Assembly: GCA_035317625.1 (NCBI GenBank)
Contig: DATHGL010000419.1
Coordinates: 1 to 26,112 of the forward strand
Reading direction: 5' to 3'
Length of the DNA stretch: 26,112 bases
DNA from: Gemmatimonadales bacterium
GTDB lineage: Bacteria; Gemmatimonadota; Gemmatimonadetes; Gemmatimonadales; GWC2-71-9
In this document: positions 13,757-18,003 of the stretch, piece after piece
Layout: the number at the start of each line of letters is the position of its first letter
How positions within the stretch are numbered: the stretch's first letter is position 1
Notes under the pieces: generated by a model
Told to the model about the DNA's origin: nothing
Seen by the model: the letters and a program-made list of their open reading frames with translations, nothing else
The model's database searches: none
Translations under genes and position numbers: made by a program

Positions 13757-14941
13757 CTAGGCGGGGAGGCGGTTCTTCAGATCCTGCGGCTTGAGCGGAC
13801 CGGGCTGGGCGATCAATGCCCGCGCATGGTCCACCTGTCCCCAGGTGTTCCACAGGAGCACGCCGCGCACCCGGCCTTCCTTCACGTAGTAGACCACTCC
13901 CTCGCGGAACGGCTCCTTCCAATCGGCCACGGTCTCGAGGCGCGCGTCGACGTCGCCGACCGCTTCGTAGCCCAGATCGAACAAGTCGGAGTAGAAGAAC
14001 GGCAAGTGATGATAGGGAGTCGCGCGGCCCGCCATGTTGAGGCCGGCCGTCCGTCCCATGGTGTTGGCGTTGTCCTCGTGCTCTACGCGGAGCCGCGTGC
14101 CCAGCGCGGGATTCTCGAAGTTGGCCACGTCGCCAGCGGCGTAGACGTCCGGGTGGCTGGTTTGGCAGTACGCGCTCACCAGGATCCCGTTCTCCACCCG
14201 CAGCCCCCCCTGCTCGGCGAGCTCCACGTCCGGCACGATGCCGAGCCCGGCGACCACCACCTCGGCCGTGAGCTCGCCCCCCGTCGTCGTGTGAACCACG
14301 CAGGAGCCGACCCGCCGGTCGAGCCCCGCCATGCCCTCCCCCGTCCGCATGGTGACGCCCTTCTCGCGGTAGTAGTCCACCAGGAAGCGAGCCAGGTCAG
14401 GGGGAAACACGCGCGCGCCCAGGCCCGCCTCGGGGACGAGCATCGTGACGTCGCGTCCCTGCAGGCGCAGCGCCGCGGCGACCTCGCTCCCGATGAATCC
14501 GCCGCCCATGACGGCGAAGCGCACATTCTGACCCGCGAGGGCGCGCAAGCGGCGGTAGTCGTCCAGCGTGCGGAAGTAGATGATCTGGTCGCTCGTCAGC
14601 GACACCCGCCGCGGCTGGCCGCCGGTCGCGAGCAGCAGCTTCCGGAACCGGTAGACCGTGCCGCGGTCGTCGGTGGCCCTGTGCCCCGCTGGATCGAGCG
14701 CCGTGACCCGCCGCCCGAGGTGCTGCGTGGCGCCGGTCTCGCTCGTGGTGCGCCAGATGCTCGCTTCGGGCTCGCCCTTCCACAGGGCCTTGGAGAGCGG
14801 CGGCCGGTTGTAGGGCGGATGCGGCTCGGCACCGATCAGGCCGATCGACCCCTTGGGGTCCACCTCGCGGATGGCGTGCGCGGCGGCGTCGGCAGTCATG
14901 CCGCCGCCGACGATGAGGTAAGCGTAGTCCGTACCGGTCAC
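13757..14941 (-). CDS. FAD/NAD(P)H-dependent oxidoreductase (ferredoxin reductase / monodehydroascorbate reductase-like)
   Basis: YLIVGGGMTA, LLLATGG, GGGFIGSE, YAAGDVA, PFFYSDLF. GTG 14941 has GGAGGAG upstream. Alternative GTG at 14953. Confidence 0.9.
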   Translation of the reverse strand: MTGTDYAYLIVGGGMTADAAAHAIREVDPKGSIGLIGAEPHPPYNRPPLSKALWKGEPEASIWRTTSETGATQHLGRRVTALDPAGHRATDDRGTVYRFRKLLLATGGQPRRVSLTSDQIIYFRTLDDYRRLRALAGQNVRFAVMGGGFIGSEVAAALRLQGRDVTMLVPEAGLGARVFPPDLARFLVDYYREKGVTMRTGEGMAGLDRRVGSCVVHTTTGGELTAEVVVAGLGIVPDVELAEQGGLRVENGILVSAYCQTSHPDVYAAGDVANFENPALGTRLRVEHEDNANTMGRTAGLNMAGRATPYHHLPFFYSDLFDLGYEAVGDVDARLETVADWKEPFREGVVYYVKEGRVRGVLLWNTWGQVDHARALIAQPGPLKPQDLKNRLPA

Positions 14942-14959
14942 GGCTCCTCCCACGGGCGT

Positions 14960-14989
14960 TTCTAAGGAGAATATACGCCGTCTTTAGAA
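14960..14989. promoter_or_regulatory. Candidate operator TTCTAAGGA-N12-TCTTTAGAA flanking a minus-strand TATATT -10
   Basis: 8 of 9 bp inverted repeat (14960-14968 and 14981-14989). AATATA at 14970-14975 lies in the spacer. Sits between divergent reductase and regulator genes. Confidence 0.6.
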
Positions 14990-15030
14990 GTATGGATCGC
15001 GCGGCGGACCGACGACTGTAGATTGTACGC

Positions 15031-15759
15031 GTGCACGCCTCCGAGCGCGAAGATCCGATCGCGGCCATTGCGTCGCTCGCCGAACCGATCCGGAGGGGCC
15101 TTTATCGCTACGTCGCCCGGCAGCAGCGCGATGTGGGTCGGGACGAAGCGGCCCGGGCGCTGGGCATCTCACGCGCCCTCGCCGCGTTCCATCTCGACAA
15201 GCTCGTCCGGCAGGGGCTCCTGGAGACCTCCTACCGCCGCCTGACGCGCCGGCGCGGGCCGGGCGCGGGTCGGCCGGCCAAGCTGTACCACTGCTCGTCC
15301 CGCCAGCTCGACGTCACGCTGCCGCCCCGCCGCTACGAGCTCGCCGGCCGCATGCTGGCCCGGGCGCTCACGGCGGCTGCGTCGCCCGCCACGCGCCGGG
15401 CGCTCACGCGCGCGGCACGCGCCGCGGGCCGGAGTCTCGGCGCCGAAGCGCGCCGCCGCGCCGACCGCGCCGACCGCGCCGGCCGCGCCGCGGGCGCGGA
15501 CCGCCTGTTGGCGAACACCCTCGCTATGCTCGAGGAGTGCGGCTACGCTCCGGCGCGCGGCAACGGCGTCGTACGACTCCGGAACTGCCCGTTCGACGCC
15601 CTCGCCAACGACTGCCGGCCGCTCGTGTGCGGGATGAACCTCACCTTGCTGCGCGGCGCGCTCGCGGCCGCCGGAGCGCGCGGCGTACGGGCGGAGCTCC
15701 GACCGGAGCCGGGGTCATGTTGCGTGATCTTGAAGACCACCCGCCACTCGACGCGCTGA
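15031..15759 (+). CDS. HTH transcriptional regulator with Cys-rich C-terminus (COG2345 / SufR-like ArsR-type)
   Basis: LAEPIRRGLY...FHLDKLVRQGLL...GRPAKLY winged HTH, then NCPF, CRPLVCGMN and SCCV. TAGATT lies 6 nt before the GTG. Confidence 0.88.
   Translation: MHASEREDPIAAIASLAEPIRRGLYRYVARQQRDVGRDEAARALGISRALAAFHLDKLVRQGLLETSYRRLTRRRGPGAGRPAKLYHCSSRQLDVTLPPRRYELAGRMLARALTAAASPATRRALTRAARAAGRSLGAEARRRADRADRAGRAAGADRLLANTLAMLEECGYAPARGNGVVRLRNCPFDALANDCRPLVCGMNLTLLRGALAAAGARGVRAELRPEPGSCCVILKTTRHSTR
15460..15486 (+). repeat. Three tandem 9-bp units (GCCGACCGC x2, GCCGGCCGC) encoding ADR-ADR-AGR
   Basis: Read directly in the regulator linker region. Confidence 0.7.
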
Positions 15760-15787
15760 AACCCCCGCCCCACACTCGCCGCTTACC

Positions 15788-15946
15788 TCACTCGCTCTCC
15801 CCGGGCGGACGCCGATGCTTCGCCTGCCGCTGATACTGTTTGGCCGAGCGATGCACCTTGTGCGACGGCGTCTTGAGCCGCCCCTTCACCGGCGCCTCCG
15901 GATTCGGTACCCGCACGGTCATTTTGTCTTTCTTGCGGCGGGTCAC
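15788..15946 (-). CDS. 52-aa basic small protein, candidate ArfA/BrfA-like ribosome rescue factor
   Basis: MTRRKKDKMTVRVPNPEAPVKGRLKTPSHKVHRSAKQYQRQAKHRRPPGESE. GTG start overlaps the DinB-like TGA (GTGA). 43 of 52 codons end in G/C. 16 K/R versus 4 D/E. Confidence is for the CDS; the function is less certain. Confidence 0.72.
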   Translation of the reverse strand: MTRRKKDKMTVRVPNPEAPVKGRLKTPSHKVHRSAKQYQRQAKHRRPPGESE

Positions 15947-16446
15947 GACGCGAGCCGAGCGCGGATCTGCTTGGCGTGATGCGCGCAGTGCCGCACGTGA
16001 AACCGCTGCCATTCGGGCAAGGTGAGATCGCCGAACGCCGGATGCTTCACGAAGAGATCGTCGCGGCGAGCGGGCAGGAGCTCGCGCGCGAGCGTGAGAA
16101 AACGAGCCACGCCGTCCCGCAGCTGCCGCTCCACCGCGCCGGCATCCGGTGCCTCCGCCGGGCGGGTGGCCTCCGGGGCCGGGCGGCCCGAGGGAATCCA
16201 CCCGATATCGAGATACAGCACCTGGCCGAGCCGTTGCCACGCCGAGCGCGGCCGACGGCGCATCGCCGGCTTGGCGCGCCGCTCTTCGAACAGGCGGCCG
16301 CTGGCCTCGAGCGAGATGGCGAGGTGGTGGACGATCTGGACGGGCGTCCACTTGCCCGGCGGGGCACGGTGCCAGTCCGCCTCAGGCCGGCCCACGAGCG
16401 GCCCGAGCACCACGTCGGGAATCGTGGCAAACCCGGCCGGCGTCAT
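15943..16446 (-). CDS. DinB / DinB_2 superfamily protein
   Basis: GKWTPVQIVHHL and HPAFGDLTLPEWQRFHVRHCAHHAKQI (His triad pattern). ATGA overlap with the upstream gene. Confidence 0.85.
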   Translation of the reverse strand: MTPAGFATIPDVVLGPLVGRPEADWHRAPPGKWTPVQIVHHLAISLEASGRLFEERRAKPAMRRRPRSAWQRLGQVLYLDIGWIPSGRPAPEATRPAEAPDAGAVERQLRDGVARFLTLARELLPARRDDLFVKHPAFGDLTLPEWQRFHVRHCAHHAKQIRARLAS

Positions 16447-16784
16447 CGCAGCGCCGCGTCCGCCAGCTGCCGCGCCTGCGCGCCCGCGGGCGACCCCGGC
16501 CGCACCCGACCCACCAGCGTCCCCGCGCTATCCACGATCGCCAGGTCGGACTCGGCGAGCGCTGCGCTGTCGGTGCGGACCGACAGGGCCCACTCGTGCC
16601 GCGCCGCGACCATCTGGAGCCGGCCCACCAACCGGTCGACGACGTTCGCCGGCAGGTAGACCGTCACCACGGTCCCGGCGTCGGCGGGCGGCGGGCTCGC
16701 GCGCGGGGCTTGTCGGCACGCGAGACCCGCGCCGGCCAGGCTCCACGCGAGCAGGTGGCGGCGTGTGGCGTCGATCGCTCTCAT
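16443..16784 (-). CDS. Hypothetical exported protein, possible Tat lipoprotein (113 aa)
   Basis: MRAIDATRRHLLAWSLAGAGLAC has a twin-Arg-like motif and lipobox GLAC. TACAAT lies 7 nt before ATG 16784. Stop is coupled to the DinB-like gene. Confidence 0.65.
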   Translation of the reverse strand: MRAIDATRRHLLAWSLAGAGLACRQAPRASPPPADAGTVVTVYLPANVVDRLVGRLQMVAARHEWALSVRTDSAALAESDLAIVDSAGTLVGRVRPGSPAGAQARQLADAALR

Positions 16785-16800
16785 ACCCAAGATTGTACGA
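16785..16800. promoter_or_regulatory. 16-bp bidirectional leaderless promoter core
   Basis: TACAAT (-, 16797-16792) is 7 nt from ATG 16784. AAGATT (+, 16789-16794) is 6 nt from GTG 16801. Confidence 0.6.
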
Positions 16801-18003
16801 GTGAACCTCCTGCGCCGCCACCCGACCGCGGTTGCGCTCATCGCGCTCCTCGTGTTCTCCGCACTCACTCCCCTCCCTCCGATCGTGGACGCCGTGAGCG
16901 GCGCGCCCCCGCCGGACGTGGACCTCGTCCGCCCCATGCTGTACACCGTGCTCGCGCCGCTCTCGAACGTACTGGACGCCCTCACATTTCTGACCACGGA
17001 GCGCGCTACGGCGTTCTTGGTCGTGTGGACCCCGGCGCTCGCCCTGTGGGGGCTCGCGCGTCGCGGCTCGGTGCGGCGGCGGCTCCTGGCGGCGCTGCTC
17101 GGCGCCCTCGCGCCCGCACTGCTGGGTGTCGCGGCGGTGCTGCTCCCGCGCCCCGTTCCCCGCCTCGTGGCGGCGGACTCGACACTGACCGTCATCGACT
17201 ACCACGCGCACACGGTCGCATCCCACGACGGGCGCCGCGGCTGGACGCTCGAGCAGCTGGCGCAATGGCACGCCGCCCAGGGGTTCGGCGCCTCCTACGT
17301 CACCGACCACAACGTCGTCTTCAACGGCGGGATCGACGACCCGATCCGTCTCCTCCCCGGGGTCGAATGGAGCGTGTACGACCAGCACGTCGTCGCGCTC
17401 GGATCGGTGACGCCCGTGGACCGGGCGGCGTTCAGCCGCGACACCCGCGCGATGCTCGGCCTGTTCGCCGAGCTGCACCGCCACGGCGCGATCGGCATCG
17501 CGGCGCTCCCCGAGTACTGGCGCAGGCACTGGGGCGACCTGGACGCCTTCGTGGCGGCTGGCGTCGACGGCTTCGAGATCGTGGACTGCGCCCCCAAGGC
17601 GATCGGCTTCCCGGCGGCGGCGCGCGCGGAGATCCTGCGGCTCGCCGAGGCGCACGATCTTCTGGTGGTGGGCGCAAGCGACAATCACGGCTGGGGCAAG
17701 GTGACGTGCGTGTGGAACCTCTCCAGTCCGAGCGCGCACGGTTACCGATCCAACCGCGTGATCGCCCGACCCATCGCGCTCGCCCAGGGCGACTGGCAGC
17801 CGTGGACCGCCGCGTACACCCAACCGTGGCTCATGCTCGAGGGGCTGTCGCGGAGCGAGCGGTCCAGCTGGATCACCTGGATCCTGGTCATCTTGATCTA
17901 CCGGGCCGTGCCCCGGCGTGACGGCGACCCCGGGGGGATCGGGATCTTGGCGCGCAGCCTGTCGCTGAAGATTCTCAGGCTGCGGCGGCCCCCGCCCAGC
18001 TGA
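16801..18003 (+). CDS. Membrane-anchored PHP-domain phosphoesterase-like protein (400 aa)
   Basis: N-terminal TM helices, DYHAHT..SHDG, VTDHN, PGVEWS, HVVAL, GASDNHG, and a C-terminal TM. Likely start GTG 16801. Confidence 0.8.
   Translation: MNLLRRHPTAVALIALLVFSALTPLPPIVDAVSGAPPPDVDLVRPMLYTVLAPLSNVLDALTFLTTERATAFLVVWTPALALWGLARRGSVRRRLLAALLGALAPALLGVAAVLLPRPVPRLVAADSTLTVIDYHAHTVASHDGRRGWTLEQLAQWHAAQGFGASYVTDHNVVFNGGIDDPIRLLPGVEWSVYDQHVVALGSVTPVDRAAFSRDTRAMLGLFAELHRHGAIGIAALPEYWRRHWGDLDAFVAAGVDGFEIVDCAPKAIGFPAAARAEILRLAEAHDLLVVGASDNHGWGKVTCVWNLSSPSAHGYRSNRVIARPIALAQGDWQPWTAAYTQPWLMLEGLSRSERSSWITWILVILIYRAVPRRDGDPGGIGILARSLSLKILRLRRPPPS

What the first reader, a model, noticed from the sequence alone, without database searches (positions are those of the whole stretch)
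15788..15946. Hidden 52-aa basic protein resembling ArfA/BrfA ribosome-rescue factors
The ORF track shows it only as the tail of a junk-looking 187-aa ORF. Its coding signals are good: GTG start overlapping the DinB-like TGA, 43 of 52 codons ending in G/C, and it fills the gap to the convergent regulator. It is very basic (16 K/R, 4 D/E) and ends KVHRSAKQYQRQAKHRRP. E. coli ArfA, as I recall it, reads RVEKNKKGKGSYMRKGKH, with the same Y-x-R-x-x-K-H spacing at almost the same position (Y38/K43/H44 here, Y39/K44/H45 there). Bacillus BrfA also has a C-terminal KH motif. It lacks the GKGS segment, and I see no internal terminator or clear RNase III hairpin to make the non-stop mRNA that regulates ArfA and BrfA. 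It may be a new release-factor-recruiting rescue factor with different regulation, or another small ribosome/RNA-binding protein. The motif is short, so this is a hypothesis.
Basis: partly seen in the sequence, partly recalled or inferred. Interest (0 to 1): 0.72.

Follow-up and report, generated by a model that had tools for sequence, protein, structure and literature searches.

The report
Conserved small basic protein, possible rescue factor
The hidden 52-codon frame is a real, strongly conserved gene for a tiny basic protein found only in one order of soil bacteria. It is not a detectable relative of ArfA, but it occurs almost only in genomes that have lost the back-up ribosome-rescue enzyme ArfB, so it is a testable candidate for a new rescue factor.

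Summary
Window 15946..15788 (-) encodes a 52-aa protein whose GTG start overlaps the TGA of a DinB_2 gene. About 150 homologues of 42-66 aa share a fixed core (VPNP..P.K.RL..P.....K.Y.R..KH), and the frame is under purifying selection. The gene lies under metatranscriptome contigs.

The family ("S") has no Pfam or NCBIfam model and was found only in Gemmatimonadales and a few phage-like contigs. It is not a member of the ArfA family. Nothing matches the ArfA HMM or any solved ArfA or BrfA chain. hhalign gives 7.7% probability, with only Y-x-R-x-x-K-H in register. There is no KGKGS motif and no 3' hairpin for a non-stop mRNA.

A prediction of the rescue hypothesis held. Of 181 genomes of the order, 39 of 41 carriers lack ArfB and 127 of 140 non-carriers have it. 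Both exceptions among carriers look like mixed bins. Two separate clades carry S at different loci. That is only two or three independent events, so a formal test has no power.

tmRNA and SmpB are present. AlphaFold predicts an extended chain.

Best reading, at about 40%: an ArfA-like analogue that binds empty-channel ribosomes. Two earlier first-reader notes of this scan flagged the same gene pair in other genomes.

The parts
15788..15946 (-). Gene for the 52-aa basic protein S (RLKTP subtype). GTG start, TGA stop. Core V11-H44 is conserved, with K43-H44 invariant across the family.
   Evidence: homologues and conservation; dN/dS 0.12; covered by metatranscriptome contigs, variants synonymous.
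15943..16446 (-). DinB_2/DUF1569 gene (167 aa). Its TGA overlaps the GTG of S by 4 nt, which suggests translational coupling. This arrangement is kept in every clade-A genome examined.
   Evidence: PF12867 E=1.9e-13, PF07606 E=1.9e-10; synteny. Orthologues in clade B and family f3 have no S gene beside them.
16443..16784 (-). Probable first gene of the operon, about 113 aa, unknown function. It overlaps the DinB start by 4 nt. The start is inferred from the homologue in L003.
   Evidence: residues 169-248 of the 250-aa ORF are 59% identical to the 114-aa gene upstream of DinB in L003. No Pfam family.
15031..15759 (+). Convergent ArsR-like HTH regulator, not a conserved neighbour of S. In L003 a Pyr_redox_2 gene follows S directly.
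   Evidence: HTH_20, 26.2 bits, just under the cut-off.

Best explanation
S is a lineage-specific, intrinsically extended basic peptide that binds the ribosome. It most likely acts as a back-up rescue factor for ribosomes stalled at the 3' end of non-stop mRNA, taking the place of ArfB in the genomes that carry it.

Inferred mechanism, by analogy with ArfA and BrfA: the basic C-terminal half (H-K-V-H-R-S-x-K-x-Y-x-R-x-x-K-H) threads into the empty mRNA entry channel of the 30S subunit. K-H would contact the 16S backbone near U534. The conserved N-terminal strand-like V-R-V-P-N-P segment and the proline-rich linker would recruit or activate a release factor to hydrolyse the peptidyl-tRNA.

Shown: the gene is real, conserved and under purifying selection. 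The protein has no predicted fold of its own. It is not detectably related to ArfA. Carriers lack ArfB and related non-carriers have it. tmRNA and SmpB are present.

Inferred: ribosome binding, the channel site, release-factor dependence, and any link to trans-translation. In clade A, expression is coupled to the upstream DinB gene. No ArfA-style non-stop mRNA control is seen.
For: 1. Real, constrained gene.
2. The size, charge and lack of a predicted fold resemble those of ArfA-type factors. The AF2 model has no secondary structure, pLDDT 80 and pTM 0.21.
3. Y-x-R-x-x-K-H lies in register with ArfA (Y39, K44, H45) in the only hhalign alignment. K-H is invariant. The BrfA paper reports a Lys-His motif shared by ArfA and BrfA that contacts U534 of 16S rRNA (PMC6881298).
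4. Pre-specified phyletic test. In 181 Gemmatimonadales genomes, 41 carry S and 39 of those have no ArfB. Of 140 non-carriers, 127 have ArfB. Eleven of the 13 genomes with neither are fragmented f3 bins that also lack the otherwise near-universal gene next to S, so their S locus is probably unassembled.
5. The two genomes with both look like mixed bins. The S contig of G044 carries an f3-type neighbour gene (83% identity, against 56% for its own copy). G213 has two rpoB genes.
6. Carriers fall into two separate, well-supported clades (clade A of f1, and f3; RpoB tree). S sits at a different locus in each.
7. Carriers show exactly two GGQ-domain matches (RF1 and RF2). Non-carriers show three.
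8. tmRNA and SmpB are present and ArfA is absent in the window's genome.
9. ArfT shows that such factors need not be regulated through non-stop mRNA (PMC6299226).
Against: There is no statistically supported homology to any known rescue factor.

The motif is short, and enterobacterial ArfA itself varies at Y39 and H45. KGKGS is absent.

There is no conserved hairpin or terminator in the 3' part of the gene.

The complementarity with ArfB rests on only two or three independent events. The sign test on independent pairs gives p about 0.5. Any gene gained on those two stem branches would show the same pattern.

ArfB is missing without S in G160 and G114 and in 56 of 63 genomes of other classes of the phylum. 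Loss of ArfB therefore does not require S.

The nearest family by profile is DUF7230, along with phage small proteins of unknown function. Neighbouring genes (DinB; a LeuA-regulatory-domain-like protein) say nothing about translation.
Confidence: 0.4

Rival explanations
1. S binds the ribosome or another RNA but has a different job, such as an accessory ribosomal protein, an assembly or hibernation factor, or a modulator of translation. The ArfB pattern would then be a coincidence of clade history.
For: S is an extended, highly basic, strongly conserved peptide, like small ribosomal proteins. The f3-type gene has its own promoter and a structured leader of about 130-170 nt, as many ribosomal-protein operons do. 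The phyletic evidence amounts to only two or three events.
Against: S is absent from most of the phylum and from half of its own family, so it is not a core ribosomal component. Nothing in this reading predicts the exclusivity with ArfB. There was no match to any ribosomal protein in PDB.
Confidence: 0.22
2. S is a domesticated member of a wider set of phage-borne small basic proteins (DUF7230, phrog_6310 and the like). Its role would be unrelated to rescue, for example binding DNA or a host protein.
For: 28 of 48 members give sub-threshold matches to DUF7230 over the C-terminal half; the best score is 23 bits against a cut-off of 27. A 42-aa homologue lies in a contig with a strong PHROG hit (L020). 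IMG/VR contigs hold a 43-aa ORF ending in the motif K-K-A-Y-R-R-K-P-K-H, whose N-terminal half matches mycobacteriophage small proteins. S sits at different loci in the two clades, which suggests mobility.
Against: All these matches are below family thresholds and cover only the basic tail. The function of the phage proteins is unknown, so this is an origin story rather than a competing mechanism. The chromosomal genes are single-copy, syntenic within each clade and not in prophage context.
Confidence: 0.2
3. S is a partner, substrate or metal-binding helper of the DinB_2 enzyme to which it is translationally coupled.
For: The 4-nt overlap with DinB is kept in every clade-A genome seen. S has three conserved histidines in the RLKTP subtype.
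Against: f3 genomes have a DinB orthologue (about 60% identical) and S on different contigs. Clade-B genomes keep the DinB orthologue without S. H29 is not conserved in the RLDAPP subtype.
Confidence: 0.06
4. The frame is not translated, and the conservation belongs to something else.
For: There is no direct protein evidence. Metatranscriptome contigs cannot give strand or prove translation.
Against: Conservation is at the protein level across 45-98% identity. dN/dS is lowest in this frame. The same protein occurs at unrelated loci. The start position is conserved.
Confidence: 0.02

Closest known systems
ArfA (alternative ribosome-rescue factor A, Pfam PF03889)
   Same: Similar active length, about 50 aa. 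Very basic, with no fold of its own. A C-terminal Y-x-R-x-x-K-H lies at nearly the same residue numbers. It coexists with tmRNA-SmpB. The distribution is narrow and clade-specific.
   Different: No significant sequence or profile similarity. No KGKGS motif. No hydrophobic C-terminal extension. No RNase III hairpin or non-stop mRNA design. The spacing between the strand-like segment and the basic tail is longer. Found in Gemmatimonadales rather than Proteobacteria.
BrfA (Bacillus) and ArfT (Francisella), independently evolved release-factor-dependent rescue factors
   Same: Small basic proteins restricted to one lineage, unrelated in sequence to ArfA. BrfA shares the K-H contact motif (PMC6881298). 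ArfT, like S, shows no sign of non-stop mRNA regulation (PMC6299226).
   Different: A profile search of PDB did not find BrfA. S has no predicted N-terminal helices like those of BrfA. No ArfT sequence was at hand for comparison.
ArfB (NF006718), the factor S appears to replace
   Same: Back-up to trans-translation. It uses a basic C-terminal tail to sense the empty mRNA channel (literature). Its distribution is nearly mutually exclusive with S within the order.
   Different: ArfB is about 140 aa and has its own GGQ catalytic domain. S has none, so it would need RF1 or RF2 or some other partner.
DUF7230 (PF23876), phrog_6310 and related phage small proteins
   Same: Length of 42-55 aa. The C-terminal K-x-Y-R-R-x-P-K-H-like tail gives repeated weak matches.
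   Different: All scores are below the curated cut-off. The VPNP..P.K.RL half of S has no counterpart. The function of DUF7230 is unknown, and no paper mentions it.

Membership tests
ArfA (PF03889) | Significant match to the family profile | tested here: not met
   No ArfA hit for the window protein or for 58 family members at E up to 10. hhalign of A2 against an ArfA alignment gave 7.7% probability. Against an ArfA HMM the window protein scored 1.9 bits and the family median was 4.0; 10% and 2.3% of shuffles reach those scores.
ArfA (PF03889) | Conserved KGKGS motif in the channel-binding tail | tested here: not met
   The aligned positions read H-R-S-[AK]-K-x. KGKGS is invariant in the ArfA set.
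ArfA (PF03889) | C-terminal basic tail with K-H (the U534 contact shared with BrfA) | tested here: met
   K43-H44 are invariant in 37 diverse members. Y-x-R-x-x-K-H is present in 136 of 139 members. Its role is taken from PMC6881298 and was not tested for S.
ArfA / BrfA | Made from a truncated (non-stop) mRNA through an internal hairpin or terminator | tested here: not met
   Fold z-score is +1.0. The scan found no terminator in or after the gene. Thirty-four homologous 3' ends share no hairpin. Transcript ends could not be mapped from contigs.
ArfA / BrfA / ArfT (functional class) | Recruits RF1 or RF2 to non-stop ribosomes; synthetic lethality with ssrA | not testable with these tools
   This needs biochemistry or genetics. 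The only indirect evidence is the exclusivity with ArfB.
BrfA | Sequence similarity to the solved BrfA chain | tested here: not met
   A profile search of all PDB chains at E up to 10 returned only the yeast Lsg1 tail, at E=0.31.
ArfT | Sequence similarity to Francisella ArfT | not tested
   No ArfT sequence was available from a tool. The paper reports homologues only in Francisella.
DUF7230 (PF23876) | Score over the gathering threshold of 27 bits along the 42-position profile | tested here: not met
   The best score is 23 bits, covering profile positions 17-38 only. The window protein itself gives no hit. No genome of the phylum scores over the cut-off.

The most novel reading that the evidence does not exclude
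S is a fourth, independently evolved family of small release-factor-dependent rescue factors. It would have displaced ArfB at least twice within Gemmatimonadales, without the non-stop-mRNA feedback used by ArfA and BrfA. Its weak relatives in phages (DUF7230-like proteins) would then hint that phages carry ribosome-rescue peptides.
Probability: 0.33. Interest if true: 0.8.

Novelty: new variant of a known kind. Interest (0 to 1): 0.6.

Why it matters
Only three families of release-factor-dependent rescue peptides are known: ArfA, BrfA and ArfT. Each was found by genetics in one lineage, and their discoverers predicted that more exist but would be invisible to homology searches. Here a candidate comes from sequence plus a phyletic test. 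It is an unannotated, strongly conserved 50-aa protein that tracks the absence of ArfB in an under-studied soil phylum.

If confirmed, it would add a new solution to an essential problem. It would show that the K-H channel contact recurs by convergence. It would also give a recipe (small basic orphan protein, K-H tail, exclusivity with ArfA/ArfB) for finding further factors. If refuted, the family still needs a name and a function, because it is among the most conserved small proteins of its clade.

Tried and rejected
- **Family and structure searches.** Pfam, NCBIfam and PHROGs gave no family for the window protein. A PDB profile search gave only a chance hit to the Lsg1 tail.
- **AF2 model of S.** It has no secondary structure, so no fold search was run on it.
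- **Non-stop mRNA regulation.** Nothing was found.
- **In-situ displacement of arfB.** There is no DinB gene beside arfB in eight non-carrier genomes. There is no S remnant beside the DinB orthologues of ten non-carriers or at the sigma54-activator/p230 locus of f1 and f2.
- **A neighbour shared by the two S loci.** None exists. The f3 neighbour p230 is near-universal in the order whether or not S is present. It has a LeuA-regulatory-domain-like C-terminal half, so it gives no link to translation.
- **Other phyla.** The genome-contig scan returned only Gemmatimonadota.
- **RNAalifold on the f3 leader.** The MAFFT alignment gave no consensus structure. Single folds do show a hairpin.
- **First RpoB tree.** It was wrong for eight rows because the wrong frame was picked. 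It was rebuilt.
- **Literature.** No paper mentions DUF7230, and none discusses rescue factors in this phylum beyond one ArfB count.

Full report
**1. What is in the window**

The ORF list shows a 187-aa frame at 15788..16351 (-). Its upstream two thirds overlap, in another frame, a DinB_2/DUF1569 gene at 15943..16446 (-). The last 52 codons begin at a GTG whose last two bases and the next base form the DinB TGA.

The product has 16 K/R, 4 D/E, three His, and Y38/K43/H44. 43 of 52 codons end in G/C, in a window of 69.7% G+C. It stops 28 nt from the end of a convergent ArsR-like gene. All the factual points of the finding hold. So does the recalled ArfA stretch, which I read from E. coli K-12.

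**2. It is a real gene**

A search of 5.8 billion proteins gave 124 relatives of 49-63 aa, all unnamed or "hypothetical" and some labelled Gemmatimonadales. They are 63-98% identical to the window protein. In 48 of them, 17 columns are invariant.

A profile search of 1.84 billion cluster representatives added a second subtype that reads R-L-D-A-P-P instead of R-L-K-T-P-S. It also added a few short low-GC versions. Across both subtypes P16, K43 and H44 are invariant. V13, P14, N15, K21, R23, L24, P27, K36, Y38 and R40 are nearly so.

Homologues start with MSR or MTR at the window's GTG, which fixes the start. dN/dS on 20 distinct copies is 0.12 in this frame and higher in all five others. That set was picked by a motif, which favours the frame somewhat.

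Four metatranscriptomic runs hold contigs over the gene. One perfect 432-nt contig spans 15518-15949. The three variants inside the gene are synonymous. Contigs give neither strand nor proof of transcription.

**3. Distribution and loci**

The family, which I call S, has no Pfam, NCBIfam or PHROG assignment. In 201 genomes sampled across the phylum it is present once each in 28. All 28 are in the window's order, and presence is all-or-none by genus. A pattern scan of 185,579 species genomes returned only Gemmatimonadota.

An RpoB tree of 53 rows gives the order as (f2,(f3,(A,B,C))). It was built with IQ-TREE in quick mode under LG+G4. Rows without a usable rpoB (G139, G217, G027, G202, G205) were left out, and G201=G210 and G203=G208 are duplicates. 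SH-aLRT support is 100 for f2, f3, A, B and C, 97 for f3+f1 and 95 for f1.

S of the RLKTP subtype is in all sampled genera of clade A. There it always overlaps the end of the DinB gene by 4 nt. S of the RLDAPP subtype is in family f3. There it always lies between a sigma-54-dependent activator and a conserved protein of about 230 aa.

DinB orthologues exist without an adjacent S in f3 (about 60% identical) and in clade B (40-47% identical). No trace of S remains at the f3-type locus in f1 or f2. The link to DinB is therefore a clade-A arrangement and not a functional necessity. S reached its two hosts, or moved within them, by separate events.

**4. Is it ArfA?**

No. The evidence:
- The ArfA model does not match the window protein or 58 relatives, even at E of 10. 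It finds nothing in the genome, while it does find E. coli's gene.
- A profile of the family finds no ArfA or BrfA chain among all PDB sequences.
- hhalign against 17 enterobacterial ArfA sequences gives 7.7% probability. Its one alignment puts K30-E52 on ArfA K31-A53, so Y-x-R-x-x-K-H is in register and nothing else is.
- Against that ArfA profile the family scores a median of 4.0 bits, which 2.3% of shuffles reach. The window protein scores 1.9 bits, which 10% reach.
- KGKGS is absent.
- The gene region does not fold better than shuffles (z = +1.0), has no terminator-like site, and shares no 3' hairpin with 34 homologues.

The membership tests therefore fail, apart from the K-H tail.

**5. 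Does it work like ArfA?**

The literature says that ArfA and BrfA, though unrelated, both use a Lys-His pair to contact 16S U534 in the empty mRNA channel, and both add a short strand to RF2 (PMC6881298). It also says that ArfT is a third, unrelated factor without non-stop regulation (PMC6299226).

S has an invariant K-H near its C-terminus and a conserved V-R-V-P-N-P strand-like segment. AlphaFold predicts no secondary structure (pLDDT 80, pTM 0.21).

The hypothesis predicts that S should substitute for another back-up factor. I tested ArfB (NF006718).
- **Family f1 (97 genomes):** 24 have S only, 71 have ArfB only (one copy is cut by a contig end), one has both (G044) and one has neither (G160).
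- **Family f2 (57 genomes):** none has S and 56 have ArfB.
- **Family f3 (27 genomes):** 16 have S. One of them (G213) has a sub-threshold ArfB match.

Carriers show two GGQ-domain matches and non-carriers show three.

The exceptions are doubtful. The S contig of G044 also carries an f3-type copy of the 230-aa gene (83% identical to the f3 query, against 56% for its own copy). G213 contains two rpoB genes from different f3 lineages. The 11 f3 genomes without S also lack the 230-aa neighbour, which all 57 f1 genomes have. They are fragmented bins, so the locus is probably missing from the assemblies.

tmRNA and SmpB are present in the window's genome.

One unpublished genome, G157 (f2), is among the f2 counts for ArfB, DinB and p230. 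Leaving it out changes no conclusion.

**6. How strong is that?**

It is suggestive, not decisive. On the tree S changes state three times and ArfB five times. Independent-pair analysis finds about two pairs in which ArfB goes the opposite way and one with no difference. That cannot reach significance.

There are two possible histories. S may have been gained two or three times, with ArfB lost on the same two stem branches. Alternatively, the ancestor of f1+f3 had both genes and each of the four descendant clades kept exactly one. Both fit redundancy. But many other genes must also have changed on those long stems, and I could not build that null.

ArfB is also missing without S in G160, in G114 and in 56 of 63 genomes of the other classes. 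Many bacteria have no known alternative factor at all (PMC4235212).

**7. Other leads**

Many members give weak, sub-threshold matches of their C-terminal half to DUF7230; the best is 23 bits against a cut-off of 27. A language-model search ranks DUF7230 clusters, a phage L5 gp78 cluster and one ArfA cluster among the nearest named neighbours. That is a lead only.

A 42-aa homologue lies in a contig with a strong PHROG hit. IMG/VR contigs hold a 43-aa ORF with the same K-K-A-Y-R-R-K-P-K-H tail. Its N-terminal half matches small proteins of cluster-A mycobacteriophages. None of these has a known function, and no paper mentions DUF7230.

This suggests a possible mobile origin. It leaves room for an unrelated function.

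**8. Verdict**

The claim of kinship with ArfA or BrfA is not. The functional hypothesis survives one real test and is the best available reading at about 40%.

Rivals:
- another ribosome- or RNA-binding role, about 22%;
- a domesticated phage peptide with another function, about 20%;
- a DinB partner, about 6%;
- not a gene, about 2%.

About 10% is left for functions I have not thought of.

Two first-reader notes from other genomes of this scan describe the same DinB-coupled ORF, one with the same ArfA guess. They are not independent evidence.

Noticed in passing
L117:2829-3025, L024:4853-5033, L032:2835-3027 and 12 further loci (f3-type S genes): The standalone RLDAPP-type S gene has a conserved promoter-like element: an A-C-T-T-G-A-G box, then A-A-G-T-x-C-T-T-G-A-C, then 17-18 nt, then a T-A-x-x-x-T-like -10. 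A leader of about 130-170 nt follows. It holds a conserved A-C-A-A-C-A-A-C-T-T-A-G motif and, shortly before the start codon, a GC-rich hairpin whose stem sequence differs between genomes but stays paired. Rfam has no match. It could be a new cis-regulatory leader.
   Followed up: partly
G000:C411:6184-6819 (L122:2285-2917); L024:5205-5855: A protein of about 215-240 aa without any Pfam family is near-universal in the order (123 of 141 genomes). It lies directly downstream of S in f3. The AF2 model (pLDDT 86) has a C-terminal half like the LeuA/CimA regulatory (amino-acid-binding) domain and an N-terminal alpha/beta domain.
   Followed up: partly
L020:4001-4129; L131:5013-5144; L133:1174-1347: Phage contigs carry 42-57-aa basic ORFs with a K-x-Y-x-R-K-x-K-H-like tail. 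One has an N-terminal half 79% identical to small 'hypothetical' proteins of cluster-A mycobacteriophages such as Peaches gp80 (phrog_855, phrog_2057). Function unknown.
   Followed up: partly
G044 contig C115 (L018/L030/L063); G213 contigs C15 and C16: Two species-representative bins look mixed. G044 holds an f3-like contig with S and a second, f3-type copy of the 230-aa gene. G213 holds two different rpoB genes.
   Followed up: partly
e.g. G058:C1:2449373-2449573, G061:C1:2227907-2228107 (families f6, f7): Genomes of two other families in the same class lack a full ArfB. They give 43-58-bit matches to ArfB positions 72-138 only, inside open frames of 130-345 aa. This may be a divergent or domain-shuffled ArfB relative.
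   Followed up: no
window 14900-17300: Metatranscriptome contigs cover 15497-16300 (the 3' end of the HTH gene, S, and most of DinB) and 14900-15324. They leave 16358-16762 (the first gene of the operon) uncovered in all four runs.
   Followed up: no
window 13757-15759 versus L003:4168-5346: In a relative, a Pyr_redox_2 gene follows S on the same strand. In the window, the ArsR-like regulator lies between them and the Pyr_redox_2 gene (13757..14953) follows on the minus strand, so the regulator looks like a local insertion.
   Followed up: no
PDB 6n8n_W residues 601-629: The only PDB hit of the family profile is the C-terminal tail of yeast Lsg1 (V-E-G-R-L-S-T-P-F-H-K-V), a pre-60S GTPase, at E=0.31. 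It is most likely chance.
   Followed up: no
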